Shown piece by piece: positions 45,001-63,000 of a stretch of DNA of 64,000 nt; position 1 is the first letter of the stretch; each line of letters opens with the position of its first letter. Where the stretch lies: NCBI RefSeq assembly GCF_002113885.1, contig NW_018407219.1, positions 184,302-248,301 of the forward strand, read 5' to 3'. The position numbers were made by a program. Source of the stretch: Mizuhopecten yessoensis (lineage: Eukaryota).

Positions 45001-48000
45001 GTGCAAAGTGTCTTATATTGGATTCTAAATTACCAGAAAATTGCACCACATTTCGTGAGCATTCAAGTGACAAAAGTTGTTGCTTTATTTATTTTTGTGT
45101 GAAAAGGATCGTGTGTTATTATCTACCTGGGTTCTCCATAGGAGGGTCCTAACGTTGGTGCTGTCCGAAGTCATAATAAGGCGCAGGTGTAACAAACATT
45201 TTACCTGGCCGTCGACACGTGTGGACGCGGGTCAATAAATCATCGTAGTTTTATTTCCCGGTCAAGTGCAGATAGATGATTTTCACTTTCTCGTGGATTA
45301 TAAACAGTGAAACAGAAAAGTCAATTTGGTGTGGTTTACAGTGATTTTACTACTGTTGTTCAACATTCGTCATTATGCTGGAAGTAGACAGTTACCGCCG
45401 AACACTCCATTCAACAGGTAAGAATAGAACAATAAAAAATCAGATTTTAAAAACCGGAAATTAAGACATTGGATTTAATCATATTGAACACTGGTAAACT
45501 TAACTTAAGTTGAAAGTCTGTTTCTTTTTCTTCTTTGCGATATGCATTTACTATATACATTTACTATATACATTTACTATACATTTACTATATACATTTA
45601 CTATATACAGTTTTTTAAAAAGTTTCATTCAACTTTACTATATTCTTATGACGACTAATTTACACGAGGTTTCGCTAGTTGCAGATAGAATTTTAATAGA
45701 CACATTAGAAATTATTGGAAAATTTTGGACATTCTCTTTATCAAAAATAGTTTGAAATGTAACTGTCAATGGCAATCTATTCATTTTTGATTTCCCCCCA
45801 AACAAAGTCGAAAAAAACACAAATATGAAATAACAATCACAAAAAAATAGAATCCAACAGCATATGCTTAGTGTGAATGATTCTTTATTCTCGTATCCCG
45901 ATGAAACCCAACATTTAAATTCCAAAATATAAGTCATGTGTTGCAATGCTGATGAGATGTGTTATAATTATACTTTTCTATTTCCAAATTAATGATGTAA
46001 GGTGACAAACATGTTCACGCTAACACAAGTTTTCACTAGTTTTAAAAAGTACTTATACTCCATATTATAGAGCTTATTGAAGTATAAATATTCAAAATTC
46101 TTATTTGAAATATTCGCTGATTTCCCAGCGGTACAGCGTAATAGGAATGGTATGTGGACCGCAGTGTTTACTCTGTCTCGCGGTCTCCTGACTCAAGGAG
46201 TTTCCCATGTACCCAACTCGATAGATCACGTTTTACCAGATACAGATTAAAACTAGAAGTGAATTAATGTTATCTGACTGTGGACTGGTGAAGTGACTTG
46301 TCCTACGATCCTTTGCTATCATCTCGTCCGTCTGTACCGTCAATCACGGGGCCGACAGACGCTACCCCGGGTAGACAACCCAGACTTATCCACGACGTGT
46401 ATTTATCTAAGAAATATAAATTATTATTTGACTGGTCTAGATTTCAATCATATGATGTGTTTAAATGTAAGAATACATTGACGAGTTTTACTTCACTCAT
46501 ACGACTTGACCGGAATTCCTATGGAGAGTGTTCCATGTAAGAGTTACCCTAAATCAACGCTAATTTCTGATAATGGTATAATTTTTAAATTAATCTATGA
46601 TATTAACGGTTTCTTAATTAGATATTTGTTATCACCATTTTATTTCATTTCTAGGGTATGACCCGCGGATTCCCATGCCAGAGATGCCAGACTTTGGGGG
46701 CCTACACGAGCCCTTTGCTTACCACGCCCTCTCCGCCGTCAACAAACCAGAGAAACAAAACTCCCTGATCCACTGGTCCCCTCCCCCCGCGACTACCGTC
46801 TCTCCCACCCCAGCGACTGGCGCCAAGTCGGACGAAGAAGATGATGAAGACGACGATGGTAGGTTTTTATTTTCAATTTTAAATGTGATTATACCTAATT
46901 GAAAAAAGTTATTCCAGTCGAATTTAAGGTGTTGTTAATACAATTTGCTTTAATATTCAAAAATAGTGAATATTATTAACAGTTTAGTTAAGGTCATATG
47001 CTACCATACATGTACACGGAGTTCGAGTTATCTCCCTTAAATATATTGCAAGTATTATCAAACAATATCCTCGTGCTATCAATACCTGCATTTTAAATGT
47101 GTCGTCCCTCAATCAACTGTCTCTAATTAGTCTTTTATGGGAGATAAAAAAAAAACAAAGGAAAGGACATGTGTATACCAGAAACTATATGCCTGTTGTA
47201 TAATACTTATATAGTGTGACAAATGCTATATATACACCTGTTCTATACTATCAGTTGACCAGATTTTGTACTAGACATTGTGTGTAAATAGAACACGTAA
47301 CCCTATTGTGACTCTATAAATTAGAAGTATAGAGTGACAGTGATACGTGAATAGGTATTACTTGTCACTTCACAATCTTCAGTAGCTCCACGACTGATCA
47401 TGTAAGGCAGTGTTGTGTCATTGTGACCCCACAAGGAGATGATAAAAAGGAGACTAATCACAGTCTACACATACACAGCGTGTCGTCTAAAGCCTTATGA
47501 TTTCTGCCATATACTAGGTGCTAAATGTACGCGACGCTATAGCTTTGTCTACTTCAGGCCAGGAACATGATCCCACCATTTAATGATATGGTCAGATTTA
47601 ATTGTACAATTGTAAAAGTTACAAAATATCCTTCATGATACAATAATAACAATGATGCTAGCAAGTGGACATCTTAGAAGCTTACGGGATACACAAAACA
47701 AGCATCGTTGCCATATATATTGTACAATTCAGTTAACGTTCGAAACGGGTTACATCCTGTTGTTTTTAGTTCAAATTCGTCGTTGTTTACTTATTTGGTG
47801 ACCGATGGCCGATCATGAAACTAATTTGACATCCGGTTTTACGAGTCGTTTTACGCGCTCGCACGTACAGTGTTGCTGCGATACGGGCCTGGGGGTGACC
47901 ATTCCCGCATAAATTGTGGCTATAAGATAATTATATTTACATCGTTATCATCATTGTCGTAAAAACCGAGGTAAAATGGAAGGAAGGGGCCAACCAGGGT

Positions 48001-60000: not shown

Positions 60001-63000
60001 CCCTGGGAGTCATTCCAGTGTCCACCCTTGGCAGGCCACCAGTAGTAGGGACTTAAGATCATGGAACTACAACCGTCTCTTGTTCAGCTCACAGCCCTCT
60101 CCAGTAGGCTCCCTACAGATTCAAGAAGAGGTCAACTTCAACAGATGTAGAGATGAAATGCCAAATTCAAGGTTGAACTTGGGATGCAAACAATATTTTA
60201 GACCTTTAGGGGAAACAAACCTCAATTTTATTTGGGCAAGCAACAACAACATCGGTCATTCTGCTAGGTCGACTGATGATGACACTTGGTCAACAATAAA
60301 CTCCCAGGACTCCGACACTGAATCCCTCGAGTCGTTTGGAAGTGGCCAATGTATTCAGCAGATAGACATGACAGCCAGTCTGCTGCCTGAGTTTAGTCCA
60401 TATGGTCCAATGTCTCCAGACAGTTTCCGTTGTGACACTCCACACCTTGATCTGATGCATGGATTAGTAAAAGAACAAATGCTCTGTTCTTATGGTGTTT
60501 CTGATAAATGCTGACAAATTTATATTATGTGACATATACTTGACTGGTCATTATAGGGTTAGTCATTATATGTACATTAGTAATCATCTTGATTTGTTCT
60601 TTCATTCAAAGTCATCAGTAACGACGTGCGTGTCGGTATTCGGGTGTTCAAGGTCACTGGTAATGCCGTTTCTGTTTAGGGAAATCAGATATTAGTAGTG
60701 CTGTATGAAATCAAAGTCAATGTTTCGGGGACTCTAGCTCTGTGGTAATTTTATGGGGAGGAATTCAAGTGCAGCCTTAATATTGATGTTTTTGGGAGGG
60801 GCAAAGTCAATGTTGATGTTATTGTTGGGAGGATCGAGGTCAGCAGTGAAGCATGTTAAGATAAGTGCTAATATTTGGGTAAGAACGTTGTAATGTTACA
60901 GTAAAGTTACAAGTGGCTTGTAATGTTTGGGGGGGTTGCATTGGGAATGTTGTTGGGGAGGAATGAAGGTCATTGGCAATGTTGTTAGGGAGGAATGAAG
61001 GTCATTGGTAATGTTGTTAGGGAGGACTCAAGGTCATTGGTAATGTGGTAAGGGGAGAGGGTCTAGGCCATTGGTAATGTTGTTAGGGTGTAATGAAGGT
61101 CATTGGTAATGCTGTAAGGGGAGAGGTTCTAGGTAATTGATAATGTTGTTAGGGGATAGGGTCTAGGTCATTGGTAATGTTGTTAGGGATGAATCAAGGT
61201 CATTGGTAATGTTCTTAGGGAGGAATCAAGGTCCTTGGTAATGTTGTAAGGGGGGAGGGTCTAGGTCATTTGTAATGTTGTATGGGGAGAGGTTCTCGGT
61301 CATTGGTAATGTTTTAAGGGGAAAGGTTCTAGGTCATTGATAATGCTGTAAGGGGAGAGGTTCTAGGTCATTGATAATGCTGTAAGGGGAGAGGTTCTAG
61401 GTAATTGATAATGTTGTTAGGGGAGAGGTTCTAGGTCATTGATAATGTTTTAAGGGGAGAGGTTCTAGGTAATTGATAATGTTGTTAGGGGAGAGTGTCT
61501 AGGTCATTGGTAATGCTGTAAGGGGAGAGTTTCTAGGTCATTGATAATGCTGTAAGGGGAGAGGTTCTAGGTTATTGATAATGTTGTAAGGGGAGAGAGT
61601 CTAGGTCATTGATAATGTTTTAAGGGGAGAGGTTCTAGGTTATTGATAATGTTGTAAGGGGAGAGAGTCTAGGTCATTGATAATGCTGTAAGGGGAGAGG
61701 TTCTAGGTTATTGATAATGTTGTAAGGGGAGAGGGCCTAGGTCATTGATAATGTTTTAAGGGGAGAGGTTCTAGGTCATGGATAATGTTGTAAGAGAGGA
61801 ATCAGTCATTAGTAATGTTGTTGGGGAGGAATCAAAGTAATTGGTAATGTTGTAAGGGGGGAGGGTCTAGGTCATTAGTAATGTTGTAAGGGGAGAGAGT
61901 CTAGGTCATTGATAATGCTGTAAGGGGAGAGTTTCTAGGTCATTGGTAATGCTGTTAGGGAGGAATCAAGGCCATTGGTAATGCTGTTAGGGAAGAATCA
62001 AGGTAATTGGTAATGCTGTTAGGGAGGAAACAAGGTCATTGGTAATGTTCTTAGGGAGGAATCAAGGTCCTTGGTAATGTTGTAAGGGGTGAGGGTCTAG
62101 GTCATTGGTGATGTTGTAAGGGGAGAGGTTCTCGGTCATTGGTAATGTTGTTATGGAGGAATCAAGGTCATTGGTAATGTTCTTAGGGAGGAATCAAGGT
62201 CCTTGGTAATGTTGTAAGGGGATAGGTTCTCGGTCATTGGTAATGTTGTACGGGGAGAGGGTCTAGGTCAGTGGTAATGTTGTAAGGGGATAGGTTCTCG
62301 GTCATTGGTAATGTTGTTAGGGATGAATCAAGGTCATTGGTAATGCTGTTAGGGAGGAATCAAGGTCATTGGCAATGCTGTTAGGGAGGAATCAAGGTCA
62401 TTGGTAATGTTGTTAGGGAGGAATCAAGGTCATTGGTAATGTTGTTAGGGAGGAATCAAGGTCATTGGTAATGTTGTAAGGGGAGAGGTTCTAGGTCATT
62501 GGTAATGTTGTAAGGGGAGAGGTTCTAGGTCATTGGTAATGTTGTAAGGGGAGAGGTTCTAGGTCATTGGTAATGTTGTAAGGGGAGAGGTTCTAGGTCA
62601 TTGGTAATGTTGTAAGGGGAGAGGTTCTAGGTCATTGGTAATGTTGTAAGGGGAGAGGTTCTAGGTCATTGGTAATGTTGTAAGGGGAGAGGTTCTAGGT
62701 CATTGGTAATGTTGTAAGGGGAGAGGTTCTAGGTCATTGGTAATGTTGTAAGGGGAGAGGTTCTAGGTCATTGGTAATGTTGTAAGGGGAGAGGTTCTAG
62801 GTCATTGGTAATGTTGTAAGGGGAGAGGTTCTAGGTCATTGGTAATGTTGTAAGGGGAGAGGGTCTAGGTCATTGGTAATGTTGTAAGGGGAGAGGTTCT
62901 AGGTCATTGGTAATGTTGTAAGGGGAGAGGTTCTAGGTCATTGGTAATGTTGTAAGGGGAGAGGGTCTAGGTCATTGGTAATGTTGTAAGGGGAGAGGTT

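What the first reader, a model, noticed from the sequence alone, without database searches (positions are those of the whole stretch)
45375..60514. Tandem pair of highly divergent Q50 PRD-like homeobox genes not matching canonical families
Seen: two same-strand genes about 3 kb apart, each with a short first coding exon, a phase-1 intron before the homeobox exon and the codon 46/47 intron. Their homeodomains share little beyond core residues (R3, R5, SYT at 7-9, Q12, I19, YP, WFQNRR) and their C-termini look unrelated. Established: the 46/47 intron and Y25-P26 typify PRD-class genes, and spiralians carry lineage-specific, fast-evolving PRD/TALE homeobox genes often expressed in early embryos. 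Inference: an old tandem duplication or mini-cluster of lineage-restricted developmental regulators.
Basis: partly seen in the sequence, partly recalled or inferred. Interest (0 to 1): 0.68.

Follow-up and report, generated by a model that had tools for sequence, protein, structure and literature searches.

The report
Two divergent scallop homeobox genes
Two neighbouring genes of the Yesso scallop encode unusual homeodomain transcription factors: one is a slowly evolving gene found across molluscs, probably the already described Lopx family, and the other is a fast-evolving gene seen so far only in scallops.

Summary
The window is Mizuhopecten yessoensis (scallop, not human). At 45375-49974 and 53227-60514 (+ strand) lie two intact four-exon homeobox genes. 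All six introns are GT-AG and both homeodomains are split between codons 46 and 47. They match RefSeq XP_021359506.1 (487 aa, 'OTX1-like') and XP_021359509.1 (565 aa, 'uncharacterized'). The two homeodomains share 18 of 60 residues and nothing else aligns.

Gene A is not fast-evolving. Its homeodomain is 49-58 of 60 identical in ten bivalves and gastropods, and it has conserved flanking and C-terminal motifs. Its orthologues carry automatic names such as ceh-37, ceh-36, OTX5 and ocelliless. It is probably the published lophotrochozoan family Lopx (Barton-Owen et al. 2018), which I could not confirm letter by letter.

Gene B does evolve fast: 42-55% protein identity among scallop genera, against 87-88% for A. 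Among named records it occurs only in Pectinidae.

Both resemble PRD-class homeodomains most, but weakly. Neither is Otx, since both have Q50. A homeodomain tree resolves neither their class nor an A-B sister relationship (AU p = 0.13). Tandem duplication stays plausible but unshown.

The parts
45375..45417 (+). Gene A coding exon 1 (14 codons plus 1 base; phase-1 GT donor at 45418)
   Evidence: The N-terminal peptide of P0001 was located at 45375. Exon check. An in-frame stop lies upstream.
46655..46858 (+). Gene A coding exon 2 (acidic tail; phase-1 donor)
   Evidence: Sequence read. The peptide is found at residue 16 of P0001, with AG and GT splice sites.
48287..48447 (+). Gene A homeobox exon. 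Carries the conserved flank RPFTPPPP and homeodomain residues 1-46 (48310-48447)
   Evidence: Pfam PF00046 E 1.6e-7; sequence; exon check. The flank is conserved in 22 orthologues.
48919..49974 (+). Gene A last exon. Holds homeodomain residues 47-60 (48919-48960), a Ser/Asp-rich stretch, a Lys-rich stretch, conserved C-terminal motifs and the stop codon
   Evidence: 30 homologues found, the 15 named ones all molluscs. Motifs. No Pfam or PDB match outside the homeodomain.
53227..53248 (+). Gene B coding exon 1 (MFLAPIS plus 1 base; donor GTAAGT)
   Evidence: Sequence. Matches the N-terminus of P0059 and P0035. Exon check.
56065..56282 (+). Gene B homeobox exon (homeodomain residues 1-46 at 56145-56282)
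   Evidence: Pfam PF00046 E 1.6e-8; sequence; exon check.
57209..57516 (+). Gene B exon 3. Holds homeodomain residues 47-60 (57209-57250, T47 W48 F49 Q50 N51 R52 R53) and a linker; phase-2 donor
   Evidence: Sequence; exon check. The Pecten and Ylistrum models start at a Met inside this exon and continue into exon 4.
57209..57220 (+). Twelve bases (T47-W48-F49-Q50) skipped by an alternative AG acceptor at 57219-57220
   Evidence: GenBank model OWF47444.1 (P0033) and Argopecten isoform X3 (P0060) both lack these four residues.
59365..60514 (+). Gene B last exon: Ser/Asn/Gln/Pro-rich, with conserved short motifs, ending in the stop codon
   Evidence: Sequence; exon check. Only 2 homologues found, Pecten and Ylistrum. 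Motifs. No Pfam or PDB match. The Atlas model of the Pecten orthologue has pLDDT 0.27.

Best explanation
These are two intact, separately transcribed homeobox genes lying head to tail in the Yesso scallop genome. Each encodes a sequence-specific DNA-binding transcription factor.

Gene A (XP_021359506.1) belongs to a slowly evolving family present across bivalves and gastropods. The family is defined by a distinctive Q50 homeodomain, an invariant proline-rich flank just before it, and several conserved motifs in an otherwise disordered C-terminal half. It is most probably the published lophotrochozoan-only family Lopx.

Gene B (XP_021359509.1) is a rapidly evolving homeobox gene found, among named records, only in scallops. 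Its homeodomain keeps the core and DNA-contact residues (R5, W48, F49, Q50, N51, R53) but has an unusual T47. Its long disordered tail carries a few conserved acidic/hydrophobic motifs.

Both are PRD-like by intron position and by best matches, but outside every canonical family.

Shown: gene structure, homeodomains, family ranges among what was searched, and the difference in rates. Inferred: binding to TAAT-type sites, a regulatory function, and any developmental role. Their common origin by tandem duplication is possible but not shown.
For: - **Gene models.** Every exon peptide maps onto the RefSeq proteins and all introns are GT-AG. Exon G+C is 0.52 and 0.46 against 0.34 in introns.
- **Homeodomains.** Pfam matches. 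The Argopecten B orthologue gives PF00046 E 1.2e-17 over profile positions 1-57 of 57.
- **A family, last exon.** 30 hits at E <= 0.001; the 15 named ones are all molluscs.
- **A family, homeobox exon.** 34 hits among 69 candidates; the 26 named ones are all molluscs, at 76-100% identity.
- **A conservation.** Homeodomain 49-58 of 60 identical in 10 species. Flank and C-terminal motifs are conserved in 22 sequences.
- **A intron.** The 46/47 intron is conserved in 8 of 8 homeobox-exon fragments and 12 of 12 last-exon fragments.
- **Lopx lead.** PMC6118893 (passages) describes Lopx as genes automatically named ceh-37/Otx. It reports a conserved N-terminal flank and a C-terminal motif, with members in Lottia, Patella vulgata, M. 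yessoensis and Biomphalaria glabrata. A's orthologues in those species are in my hit lists and carry such names: ceh-37, ceh-36-like, OTX5-like, ocelliless-like, OTX1-like.
- **B family.** HMMER of the homeobox exon against 1.84 billion representatives gave 26 hits at E <= 0.001. Apart from the window's own protein, only the Argopecten orthologue is close (56%). The last exon hit only Pecten and Ylistrum.
- **Rates.** Whole-protein identity among scallop genera is 87-88% for A and 42-55% for B. B's homeodomain (38 of 60) is better kept than its last exon (136 of 365).
- **PRD-like.** Class labels below are recalled, not from a call. Solved-structure hits are 7 of 7 (A exon) and 7 of 9 (B exon) PRD-class. 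They are 17 of the best 20 for a whole orthologue of each. [quoted passage not shown]
Against: - **Lopx identity not confirmed.** The figure and supplement with the Lopx sequences were not visible.
- **No non-mollusc relative of A.** I found no annelid, brachiopod or cephalopod relative, although Lopx is reported there. My searches for A depend on shared exact words and would miss divergent members.
- **Class assignment is weak.** In the tree A sits with PRD-type references at only 61/52 support. Joining A to Hox-type references is not rejected (AU p 0.52). A's first helix (YTRYQL) and third helix (QVKIWFQNRR) look Hox-like, and some orthologues are automatically named proboscipedia.
- **Doubts about B.** The RefSeq models in Pecten and Ylistrum start downstream of the homeodomain. 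T47 is unusual. A splice variant removes T47-Q50.
- **No expression or binding data** were available.
Confidence: 0.75

Rival explanations
1. Origin question: B is an old tandem duplicate of A (a Lopx-type gene) that diverged asymmetrically. One copy stayed conserved and the other evolved fast.
For: - The genes are adjacent on the same strand, 3.25 kb apart.
- Both are entered by a phase-1 intron and split at 46/47.
- Both combine Y8, Y25-P26 and Q50.
- Linkage is kept in 4 of 4 scallop genera at contig level. In Ylistrum the accessions are consecutive, and in Mizuhopecten the GenBank numbers are consecutive.
- The AU test does not reject an A+B clade (p 0.134).
- Rates are strongly unequal.
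- With about 136 homeobox genes per bivalve genome (PMC5322547 abstract), a chance homeobox neighbour is rare for any one gene. This is my rough estimate.
Against: - The homeodomains share 18 of 60 residues, at the bottom of each other's identity lists among 23 other homeodomains.
- The best tree does not join them.
- The upstream phase-1 introns lie at different distances from the homeodomain: 8 residues in A, 27 in B.
- Y8 and S7-Y8-T9 also occur in unrelated homeodomains in the set, such as Hox types and P0055b.
- The 46/47 intron is common to many PRD-class genes.
- Across a whole genome, about half a chance pair is expected (my estimate).
Confidence: 0.4
2. The genes are members of canonical PRD families, as the automatic names suggest (OTX1-like, ESX1, NOBOX-like, ocelliless-like).
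For: Automatic names. OTX2 and CRX are the top solved-structure hits for A's exon.
Against: - Both have Q50, whereas the Otx family has K50 (recalled).
- The match to OTX2 is only 22 bits for the exon and 37.9 bits for a whole orthologue.
- A shares 14 of 46 identities with an Otx-type homeodomain.
- The names given to orthologues disagree with each other: ceh-37, proboscipedia, ROC4-like, NOBOX-like.
- PMC6118893 states that such 'ceh-37' genes share little with ceh-37.
Confidence: 0.02
3. Gene A is not Lopx. It is one of the noncanonical spiralian PRD clades (I-VIII), or a separate mollusc-only orphan family.
For: - All 26 named relatives by the homeobox exon and all 15 named relatives by the last exon are molluscs.
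- No annelid or brachiopod hit was found.
- The Lopx sequences could not be seen.
Against: - The description of Lopx fits: automatic names, species list including M. yessoensis, a conserved N-terminal flank and a C-terminal motif.
- The one printed clade motif I could test, SPQQVRS of PRD Clade VI, is absent from 3 of 3 proteins checked (P0001, P0059, P0035).
- My searches depend on shared words, so a lack of annelid hits is weak evidence.
Confidence: 0.22
4. Gene B is decaying, or no longer acts as a DNA-binding factor: a relic homeobox attached to a lineage-specific disordered protein.
For: - Evolution is very fast.
- The Pecten and Ylistrum RefSeq models lack the homeodomain.
- T47 is unusual, and Argopecten has K52.
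- A variant lacking T47-Q50 is annotated in two genera.
- The end of the M. yessoensis protein departs from the other three.
Against: - The reading frame is open through four exons with canonical splice sites.
- The homeodomain is the best conserved long stretch of the protein between Mizuhopecten and Argopecten: 38 of 60, against 136 of 365 in the last exon.
- R5, W48, F49, Q50, N51 and R53 are kept.
- Pfam E 1.2e-17 in Argopecten.
- C-terminal motifs are invariant in 4 of 4 species.
Confidence: 0.12

Closest known systems
Lopx (lophotrochozoan-only homeobox; Barton-Owen et al. 2018, PMC6118893)
   Same: For gene A the description matches. It is a single-copy divergent homeobox gene of molluscs that pipelines name ceh-37/Otx. 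It has a conserved stretch just N-terminal of the homeodomain and conserved C-terminal motifs. The paper lists a member in M. yessoensis, Lottia, Patella vulgata and Biomphalaria glabrata, all species in which I found A's orthologue.
   Different: I could not compare letters because the figure and supplement were not visible. I found no annelid, brachiopod or cephalopod member. The authors leave Lopx unclassified rather than PRD-class. Gene B is not part of this family (18 of 60 identities with A).
Noncanonical spiralian PRD clades I-VIII (Paps et al. 2015, PMC5322547; Barton-Owen et al. 2018)
   Same: The kind of gene is the same: PRD-like homeoboxes without counterparts outside Lophotrochozoa, hard to classify, with no large companion domain. 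Some are reported with early or late developmental expression. Gene B fits this kind.
   Different: Membership of any one clade could not be tested because the alignments are in supplements. The PRD Clade VI motif SPQQVRS is absent. Among named records B is seen only in Pectinidae, which is narrower than the published clades (Trochozoa or wider).
Otx / ceh-37 (canonical PRD-class family; source of the automatic names)
   Same: They share the homeodomain fold, Y25-P26 and the 46/47 intron. OTX2, CRX and ceh-37 are among the best solved-structure hits.
   Different: Both scallop genes have Q50, not K50 (recalled). Identity is about 30% (14 of 46). No Otx-type motifs were seen outside the homeodomain.
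Crx and its divergent tandem daughters (ETCHbox: Leutx, Tprx, Dprx, Argfx) in eutherian mammals (PMC4904359 and PMC8208926, search listing and abstracts only; LEUTX passage in PMC2211742)
   Same: This is an analogy for the pair: a conserved homeobox gene with a radically diverged, fast-evolving homeobox neighbour that keeps the 46/47 intron.
   Different: It is an unrelated lineage and unrelated genes. For the scallop pair the parent-daughter relation is not shown, and nothing is known here about expression.

Membership tests
Homeodomain superfamily (Pfam PF00046) | Profile match above the curated cut-off | tested here: met
   Bit scores are 31.5 (A exon) and 34.7 (B exon) against a cut-off of 22.9. 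The Argopecten B orthologue scores 63.9 bits over the whole profile. PF00046 is precomputed for A and its orthologues.
Homeodomain superfamily (Pfam PF00046) | Core and DNA-contact residues W48, F49, N51, R53 and R5, in 60 residues without insertion (so not TALE) | tested here: met
   Both align without gaps to 60-residue homeodomains and keep these residues.
PRD class (criteria used for divergent genes by Holland et al. 2007, PMC2211742) | Intron between homeodomain codons 46 and 47 | tested here: met
   A: 48447 | 48919. B: 56282 | 57209. Conserved in the A family in 8 of 8 and 12 of 12 fragments.
PRD class (criteria used for divergent genes by Holland et al. 2007, PMC2211742) | Highest similarity to PRD-class homeodomains | tested here: met
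   PRD-class rows among solved-structure hits: 7 of 7 (A exon), 7 of 9 (B exon), and 17 of the best 20 for each whole orthologue. Class labels are recalled. Scores are low (20-54 bits). Raw identity to Hox-type references is just as high.
PRD class (criteria used for divergent genes by Holland et al. 2007, PMC2211742) | Groups with PRD-class genes in a homeodomain tree | tested here: inconclusive
   Tree of 30 homeodomains. A sits with PRD-type references at 61/52 and B lies in an unresolved fork. A plus Hox-type references is not rejected, p 0.52. The reference set is small and was chosen by similarity to B.
PRD class (criteria used for divergent genes by Holland et al. 2007, PMC2211742) | [quoted passage not shown] | not testable with these tools
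Only Y25-P26 could be checked. It is present in both genes and in all 5 of the PRD-type reference homeodomains held, and in 0 of 10 Hox/zen-type ones.
Otx family | K50 and high homeodomain identity to Otx/Otd (recalled) | tested here: not met
   Q50 in both genes. 14 of 46 (A) and 12 of 46 (B) identities with an Otx-type homeodomain. OTX2 scores 22 bits against the A exon.
Lopx | Orthologues are the genes automatically named ceh-37/Otx in lophotrochozoans, including M. yessoensis, Lottia, Patella vulgata and Biomphalaria glabrata | tested here: met
   A's orthologues are named ceh-37 (Plakobranchus, Elysia marginata), ceh-36-like (Patella vulgata), OTX5-like (Mya), ocelliless-like (Pomacea) and OTX1-like (M. 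yessoensis). Lottia and Biomphalaria glabrata orthologues are present. This applies to gene A only.
Lopx | Conserved N-terminal flank of the homeodomain and a C-terminal motif unique to the family (Fig. 6 of PMC6118893) | tested here: inconclusive
   A's family has an invariant flank and several conserved C-terminal motifs. The published letters were not visible, so identity of the motifs is unproven.
Lopx | Members in annelids and brachiopods (a lophotrochozoan-wide range) | tested here: inconclusive
   All named hits are molluscs: 15 of 15 and 26 of 26. The searches need shared exact words, and only 69 candidates were scored.
PRD Clade VI (Paps et al. 2015) | Motif SPQQVRS within the sequence | tested here: not met
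   Absent from P0001, P0059 and P0035. The motif was taken from section 12 of PMC5322547.

The most novel reading that the evidence does not exclude
Gene B is an asymmetrically diverged tandem daughter of the conserved Lopx-type gene A. This would be a molluscan parallel to Crx and its ETCHbox daughters in mammals. B also carries a conserved alternative 3' splice site that removes T47-W48-F49-Q50 from the recognition helix. That variant is annotated independently in Mizuhopecten and Argopecten. The locus would then make both a DNA-binding form and a form that cannot bind DNA.
Probability: 0.25. Interest if true: 0.55.

Novelty: new member of a known kind. Interest (0 to 1): 0.3.

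Why it matters
Spiralian animals hold many homeobox genes with no counterpart elsewhere, and how such regulators arise is an open question. This locus places a very conserved clade-specific homeobox gene (probably Lopx) directly beside a fast-evolving one restricted to scallops. If the two are parent and daughter, the pair is a compact, testable case of asymmetric divergence after tandem duplication. 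It could be approached with existing scallop genomes and developmental RNA-seq.

As it stands, both genes are already annotated and the phenomenon (noncanonical PRD-like homeoboxes in molluscs) is published. The finding therefore refines knowledge rather than changing it. It also shows that the automatic names (OTX1-like, ESX1) are misleading.

Tried and rejected
- **Canonical family membership** (Otx, Nobox, Esx1). Rejected on Q50 and low similarity.
- **Third homeobox gene or a larger cluster in the window.** None found.
- **Companion domains.** No Pfam family outside the homeodomain in any of the six exon translations. No solved-structure relative of either last exon.
- **Protein Atlas.** The two exon queries were not held. 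Stored orthologues gave only generic homeodomain clusters below 0.9 for A and a chance-level hit for B's tail.
- **Homeodomain tree.** It resolved the two families (A 100/100; B plus two unnamed fragments 96/98) but nothing deeper. The AU tests rejected nothing.
- **Structure prediction.** Asked for twice and not accepted by the tool, so no model and no fold search were made.
- **Complex prediction.** Not used, because no binding claim is made.
- **Literature.** No paper in the searched library holds the identifiers of gene B (0 papers). 'Lopx' occurs in 13 papers, 11 listed, of which 2 concern homeoboxes. Searches for a scallop homeobox survey found nothing specific to these genes.
- **Mapping A to an oyster gene of Paps et al.** This failed because no Crassostrea gigas identifier appeared among my hits.

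Full report
**What is in the sequence.** Reading the region and checking each exon against database proteins gives two four-exon genes on the + strand.
- Gene A: 45375-45417, 46655-46858, 48287-48447, 48919-49974 (1464 nt).
- Gene B: 53227-53248, 56065-56282, 57209-57516, 59365-60514 (1698 nt).

All six introns are GT-AG. Both start codons have in-frame stops upstream. Exon G+C (0.52 and 0.46) exceeds intron G+C (0.34). Pfam Homeodomain matches the first homeobox exon of each gene above its cut-off. In both genes the homeodomain is split exactly between codons 46 and 47, and the homeobox exon is entered by a phase-1 intron. The only corrections are that A has two short coding exons before the homeobox exon, and B has one more intron (phase 2) after it. 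A scan of 2789 ORF pieces found no further homeobox in the 64 kb.

**Origin of the window and how the search was done.** The last exon of A is 100% identical to a Mizuhopecten yessoensis protein, so the window is scallop, not human. I searched the spliced models exon by exon. The step of joining the exons and searching with the joined sequence was left out. Where a whole homeodomain was needed I used database proteins by their ids.
- The models are XP_021359506.1 / OWF47443.1 (487 aa, 'homeobox protein OTX1-like', UniRef 'ESX1') for A.
- They are XP_021359509.1 (565 aa, 'uncharacterized protein LOC110454365') for B.
- An older, poor 179-aa model of B also exists (OWF47444.1).

**Gene A is a conserved mollusc-wide family, probably Lopx.**
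- The last exon found 30 proteins at E <= 0.001. The 15 named ones are all bivalves or gastropods.
- The homeobox exon found 34 proteins among 69 candidates. The 26 named ones are all molluscs, from the protobranch Solemya to pulmonate snails, at 76-100% identity.
- The homeodomain is 49-58 of 60 identical to the scallop's in ten species.
- In 22 aligned orthologues, the proline-rich flank just before the homeodomain, a stretch after it, and several C-terminal motifs are conserved.
- The 46/47 intron is conserved. 8 of 8 contig ORF fragments with the first part break after K46. 12 of 12 with the second part begin at I47.
- So A's homeodomain is far from other families but is not fast-evolving.
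- The automatic names of the orthologues disagree: ceh-37, ceh-36-like, OTX5-like, ocelliless-like, NOBOX-like, proboscipedia, ROC4-like.

Barton-Owen et al. 2018 (PMC6118893; I read passages) describe such genes. They call them 'putative ceh-37 genes' that share little with ceh-37. These form a strongly supported clade apart from all PRD families except Hopx. They have a conserved N-terminal flank and a unique C-terminal motif. Members are listed in Lottia, Patella vulgata, M. yessoensis, Biomphalaria glabrata, oyster, octopus, annelids and Lingula. The family is named Lopx and left unclassified. A later snail genome paper counts Lopx as one lophotrochozoan-specific gene outside the 11 classes (PMC8848322, one passage). 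The description fits A. The figure and supplements were not visible and I found no non-mollusc member, so I rate the assignment at about 0.75.

**Gene B is fast-evolving and restricted.**
- HMMER of B's homeobox exon against 1.84 billion representatives gave 26 hits at E <= 0.001. They were the window's own protein, an Argopecten irradians protein of 571 aa (56% identity, same exon layout and N-terminus), and otherwise distant homeodomains at 27-48%.
- Two unnamed fragments (P0042/P0063 and P0054) group with B in the tree (96/98). The family may therefore reach a little beyond named scallops.
- B's last exon found only Pecten maximus and Ylistrum balloti proteins (2 hits among 900 candidates).
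- Those two models start at a Met inside exon 3 and run into exon 4. This supports that splice, but they lack the homeodomain. Whether their homeobox exons exist could not be checked.
- Whole-protein identity among scallop genera is 42-55% for B against 87-88% for A.
- Within B, the homeodomain (38 of 60) and short C-terminal motifs (34-36 of 51) are kept better than the rest (136 of 365 in the last exon against Argopecten).
- The tail has no Pfam or solved-structure relative. The Atlas model of the Pecten orthologue has pLDDT 0.27, so it is probably disordered.

**Relation between A and B.**
- Only the homeodomains align, and they share 18 of 60 residues.
- Among the 23 other homeodomains I held, each is near the bottom of the other's identity list.
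- In a tree of 30 homeodomains the two families are each well supported, but deep forks are open.
- Forcing A+B together costs 1.6 log-likelihood units (AU p 0.134). Forcing A with Hox-type references is not rejected either (p 0.52). The reference set is small and was chosen by similarity to B.
- What speaks for a shared origin is position and structure: the same strand, 3.25 kb apart, the same 46/47 intron, and a phase-1 intron upstream, though at different distances from the homeodomain.
- Linkage also points that way. It is kept in 4 of 4 scallop genera at contig level, with consecutive accessions in Ylistrum and Mizuhopecten.
- I put tandem duplication at about 0.4.

**Class.**
- Holland et al. 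2007 (PMC2211742, passages) placed divergent genes such as HOPX and LEUTX in the PRD class. Their criteria were best identity, invariant residues, the 46/47 intron and linkage.
- Here the intron criterion is met.
- The best solved-structure matches are mostly PRD-class: 7 of 7 and 7 of 9 for the exons, and 17 of the best 20 for whole orthologues. The class labels are from my own knowledge.
- Scores are low. A's helix 1 and helix 3 resemble Hox-type sequences, and the tree is undecided.
- 'PRD-like' is fair. 'PRD class member' is not shown.
- Otx membership fails on Q50 and on identity.

**How they most likely work.** Both keep R5, W48, F49, Q50, N51 and R53 and the hydrophobic core, so they should fold as homeodomains and bind TAAT-type sites. 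This is an inference from general homeodomain knowledge.
- A has I47. After the homeodomain it has a Ser/Asp-rich stretch and a Lys-rich stretch that looks like a nuclear localisation signal (read).
- B has T47, conserved in Argopecten, which may change its site preference.
- Regulatory output probably comes from the short conserved motifs in the disordered tails.
- A developmental role is an expectation drawn from Paps et al. 2015 (PMC5322547, section 12 read). They report that novel oyster homeobox genes peak early or late in development. It was not tested here.

**Novelty and limits.** Both genes are annotated. A's family is probably published, and B's kind (a taxonomically restricted PRD-like homeobox) is known. 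No paper in the searched library names B's identifiers.

The following stayed unchecked.
- The supplements of PMC6118893 and PMC5322547, which hold the Lopx and PRD clade sequences and may settle both assignments.
- Any eukaryotic genome other than this window, so there is no synteny outside scallops and no check of the Pecten and Ylistrum homeobox exons.
- Expression data.
- Structure prediction (the tool did not accept jobs).
- The closed collections metagenome contigs and viral contigs, which were not used.

Noticed in passing
window 57209-57220 (+): The codons for T47-W48-F49-Q50 of gene B end in CAG, which can serve as an alternative 3' splice site 12 bases downstream. Two independent annotations use it: OWF47444.1 of M. 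yessoensis and isoform X3 (XP_069116729.1) of Argopecten irradians. The resulting protein lacks the core of the recognition helix. Gene A has no AG at the equivalent place.
   Followed up: partly
window 60450-60514 (+): The last 20 or so residues of M. yessoensis gene B depart from the shared ending of the Pecten, Ylistrum and Argopecten proteins and run about 13 residues longer. An out-of-frame ATG-GAT-TAG at 60459-60467 would read M-D-stop, like the end of the Ylistrum orthologue and close to the ends of the other two. This suggests a small frame change near the 3' end, or an assembly error.
   Followed up: partly
proteins P0031 and P0032 (Pecten maximus, Ylistrum balloti): The RefSeq models of gene B's orthologues start at an internal Met downstream of the homeodomain. 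Either the homeobox exons are missing from these models or they are lost in these species.
   Followed up: no
window 20649-20750 (+): A short ORF has the first half of a PHD finger (Pfam PHD E 0.0016, below the cut-off).
   Followed up: partly
window 12570-13340 (+): A remnant of a Tc1/mariner-type transposase (Pfam DDE_3 E 1.6e-10, HTH_Tnp_Tc3_2 E 5.8e-9), with no start codon at its 5' end.
   Followed up: partly
window 4846-7341, 22450-23203, 24656-26445, 27473-29349, 30966-31873, 32994-35825, 43522-44103, 60939-63982: Many long minisatellite arrays (units of 20-36 bases, up to 92 copies) surround the gene pair, while 45-60.5 kb is free of them. The 32-base arrays at 22450-23203 and 24656-26445 have reverse-complementary units, so they form an inverted pair. 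The 36-base arrays at 32994-33649 and 33647-34184 also switch orientation.
   Followed up: no
window 18562-19129: A run of 568 N (assembly gap or masked), left as it is.
   Followed up: no
protein P0034 (Chilo suppressalis, CAH0399136.1): This model has six identical copies of one homeodomain-containing unit in one protein. It is either a tandem array fused by the annotation or an assembly artefact. Its high rank comes from the six copies.
   Followed up: no
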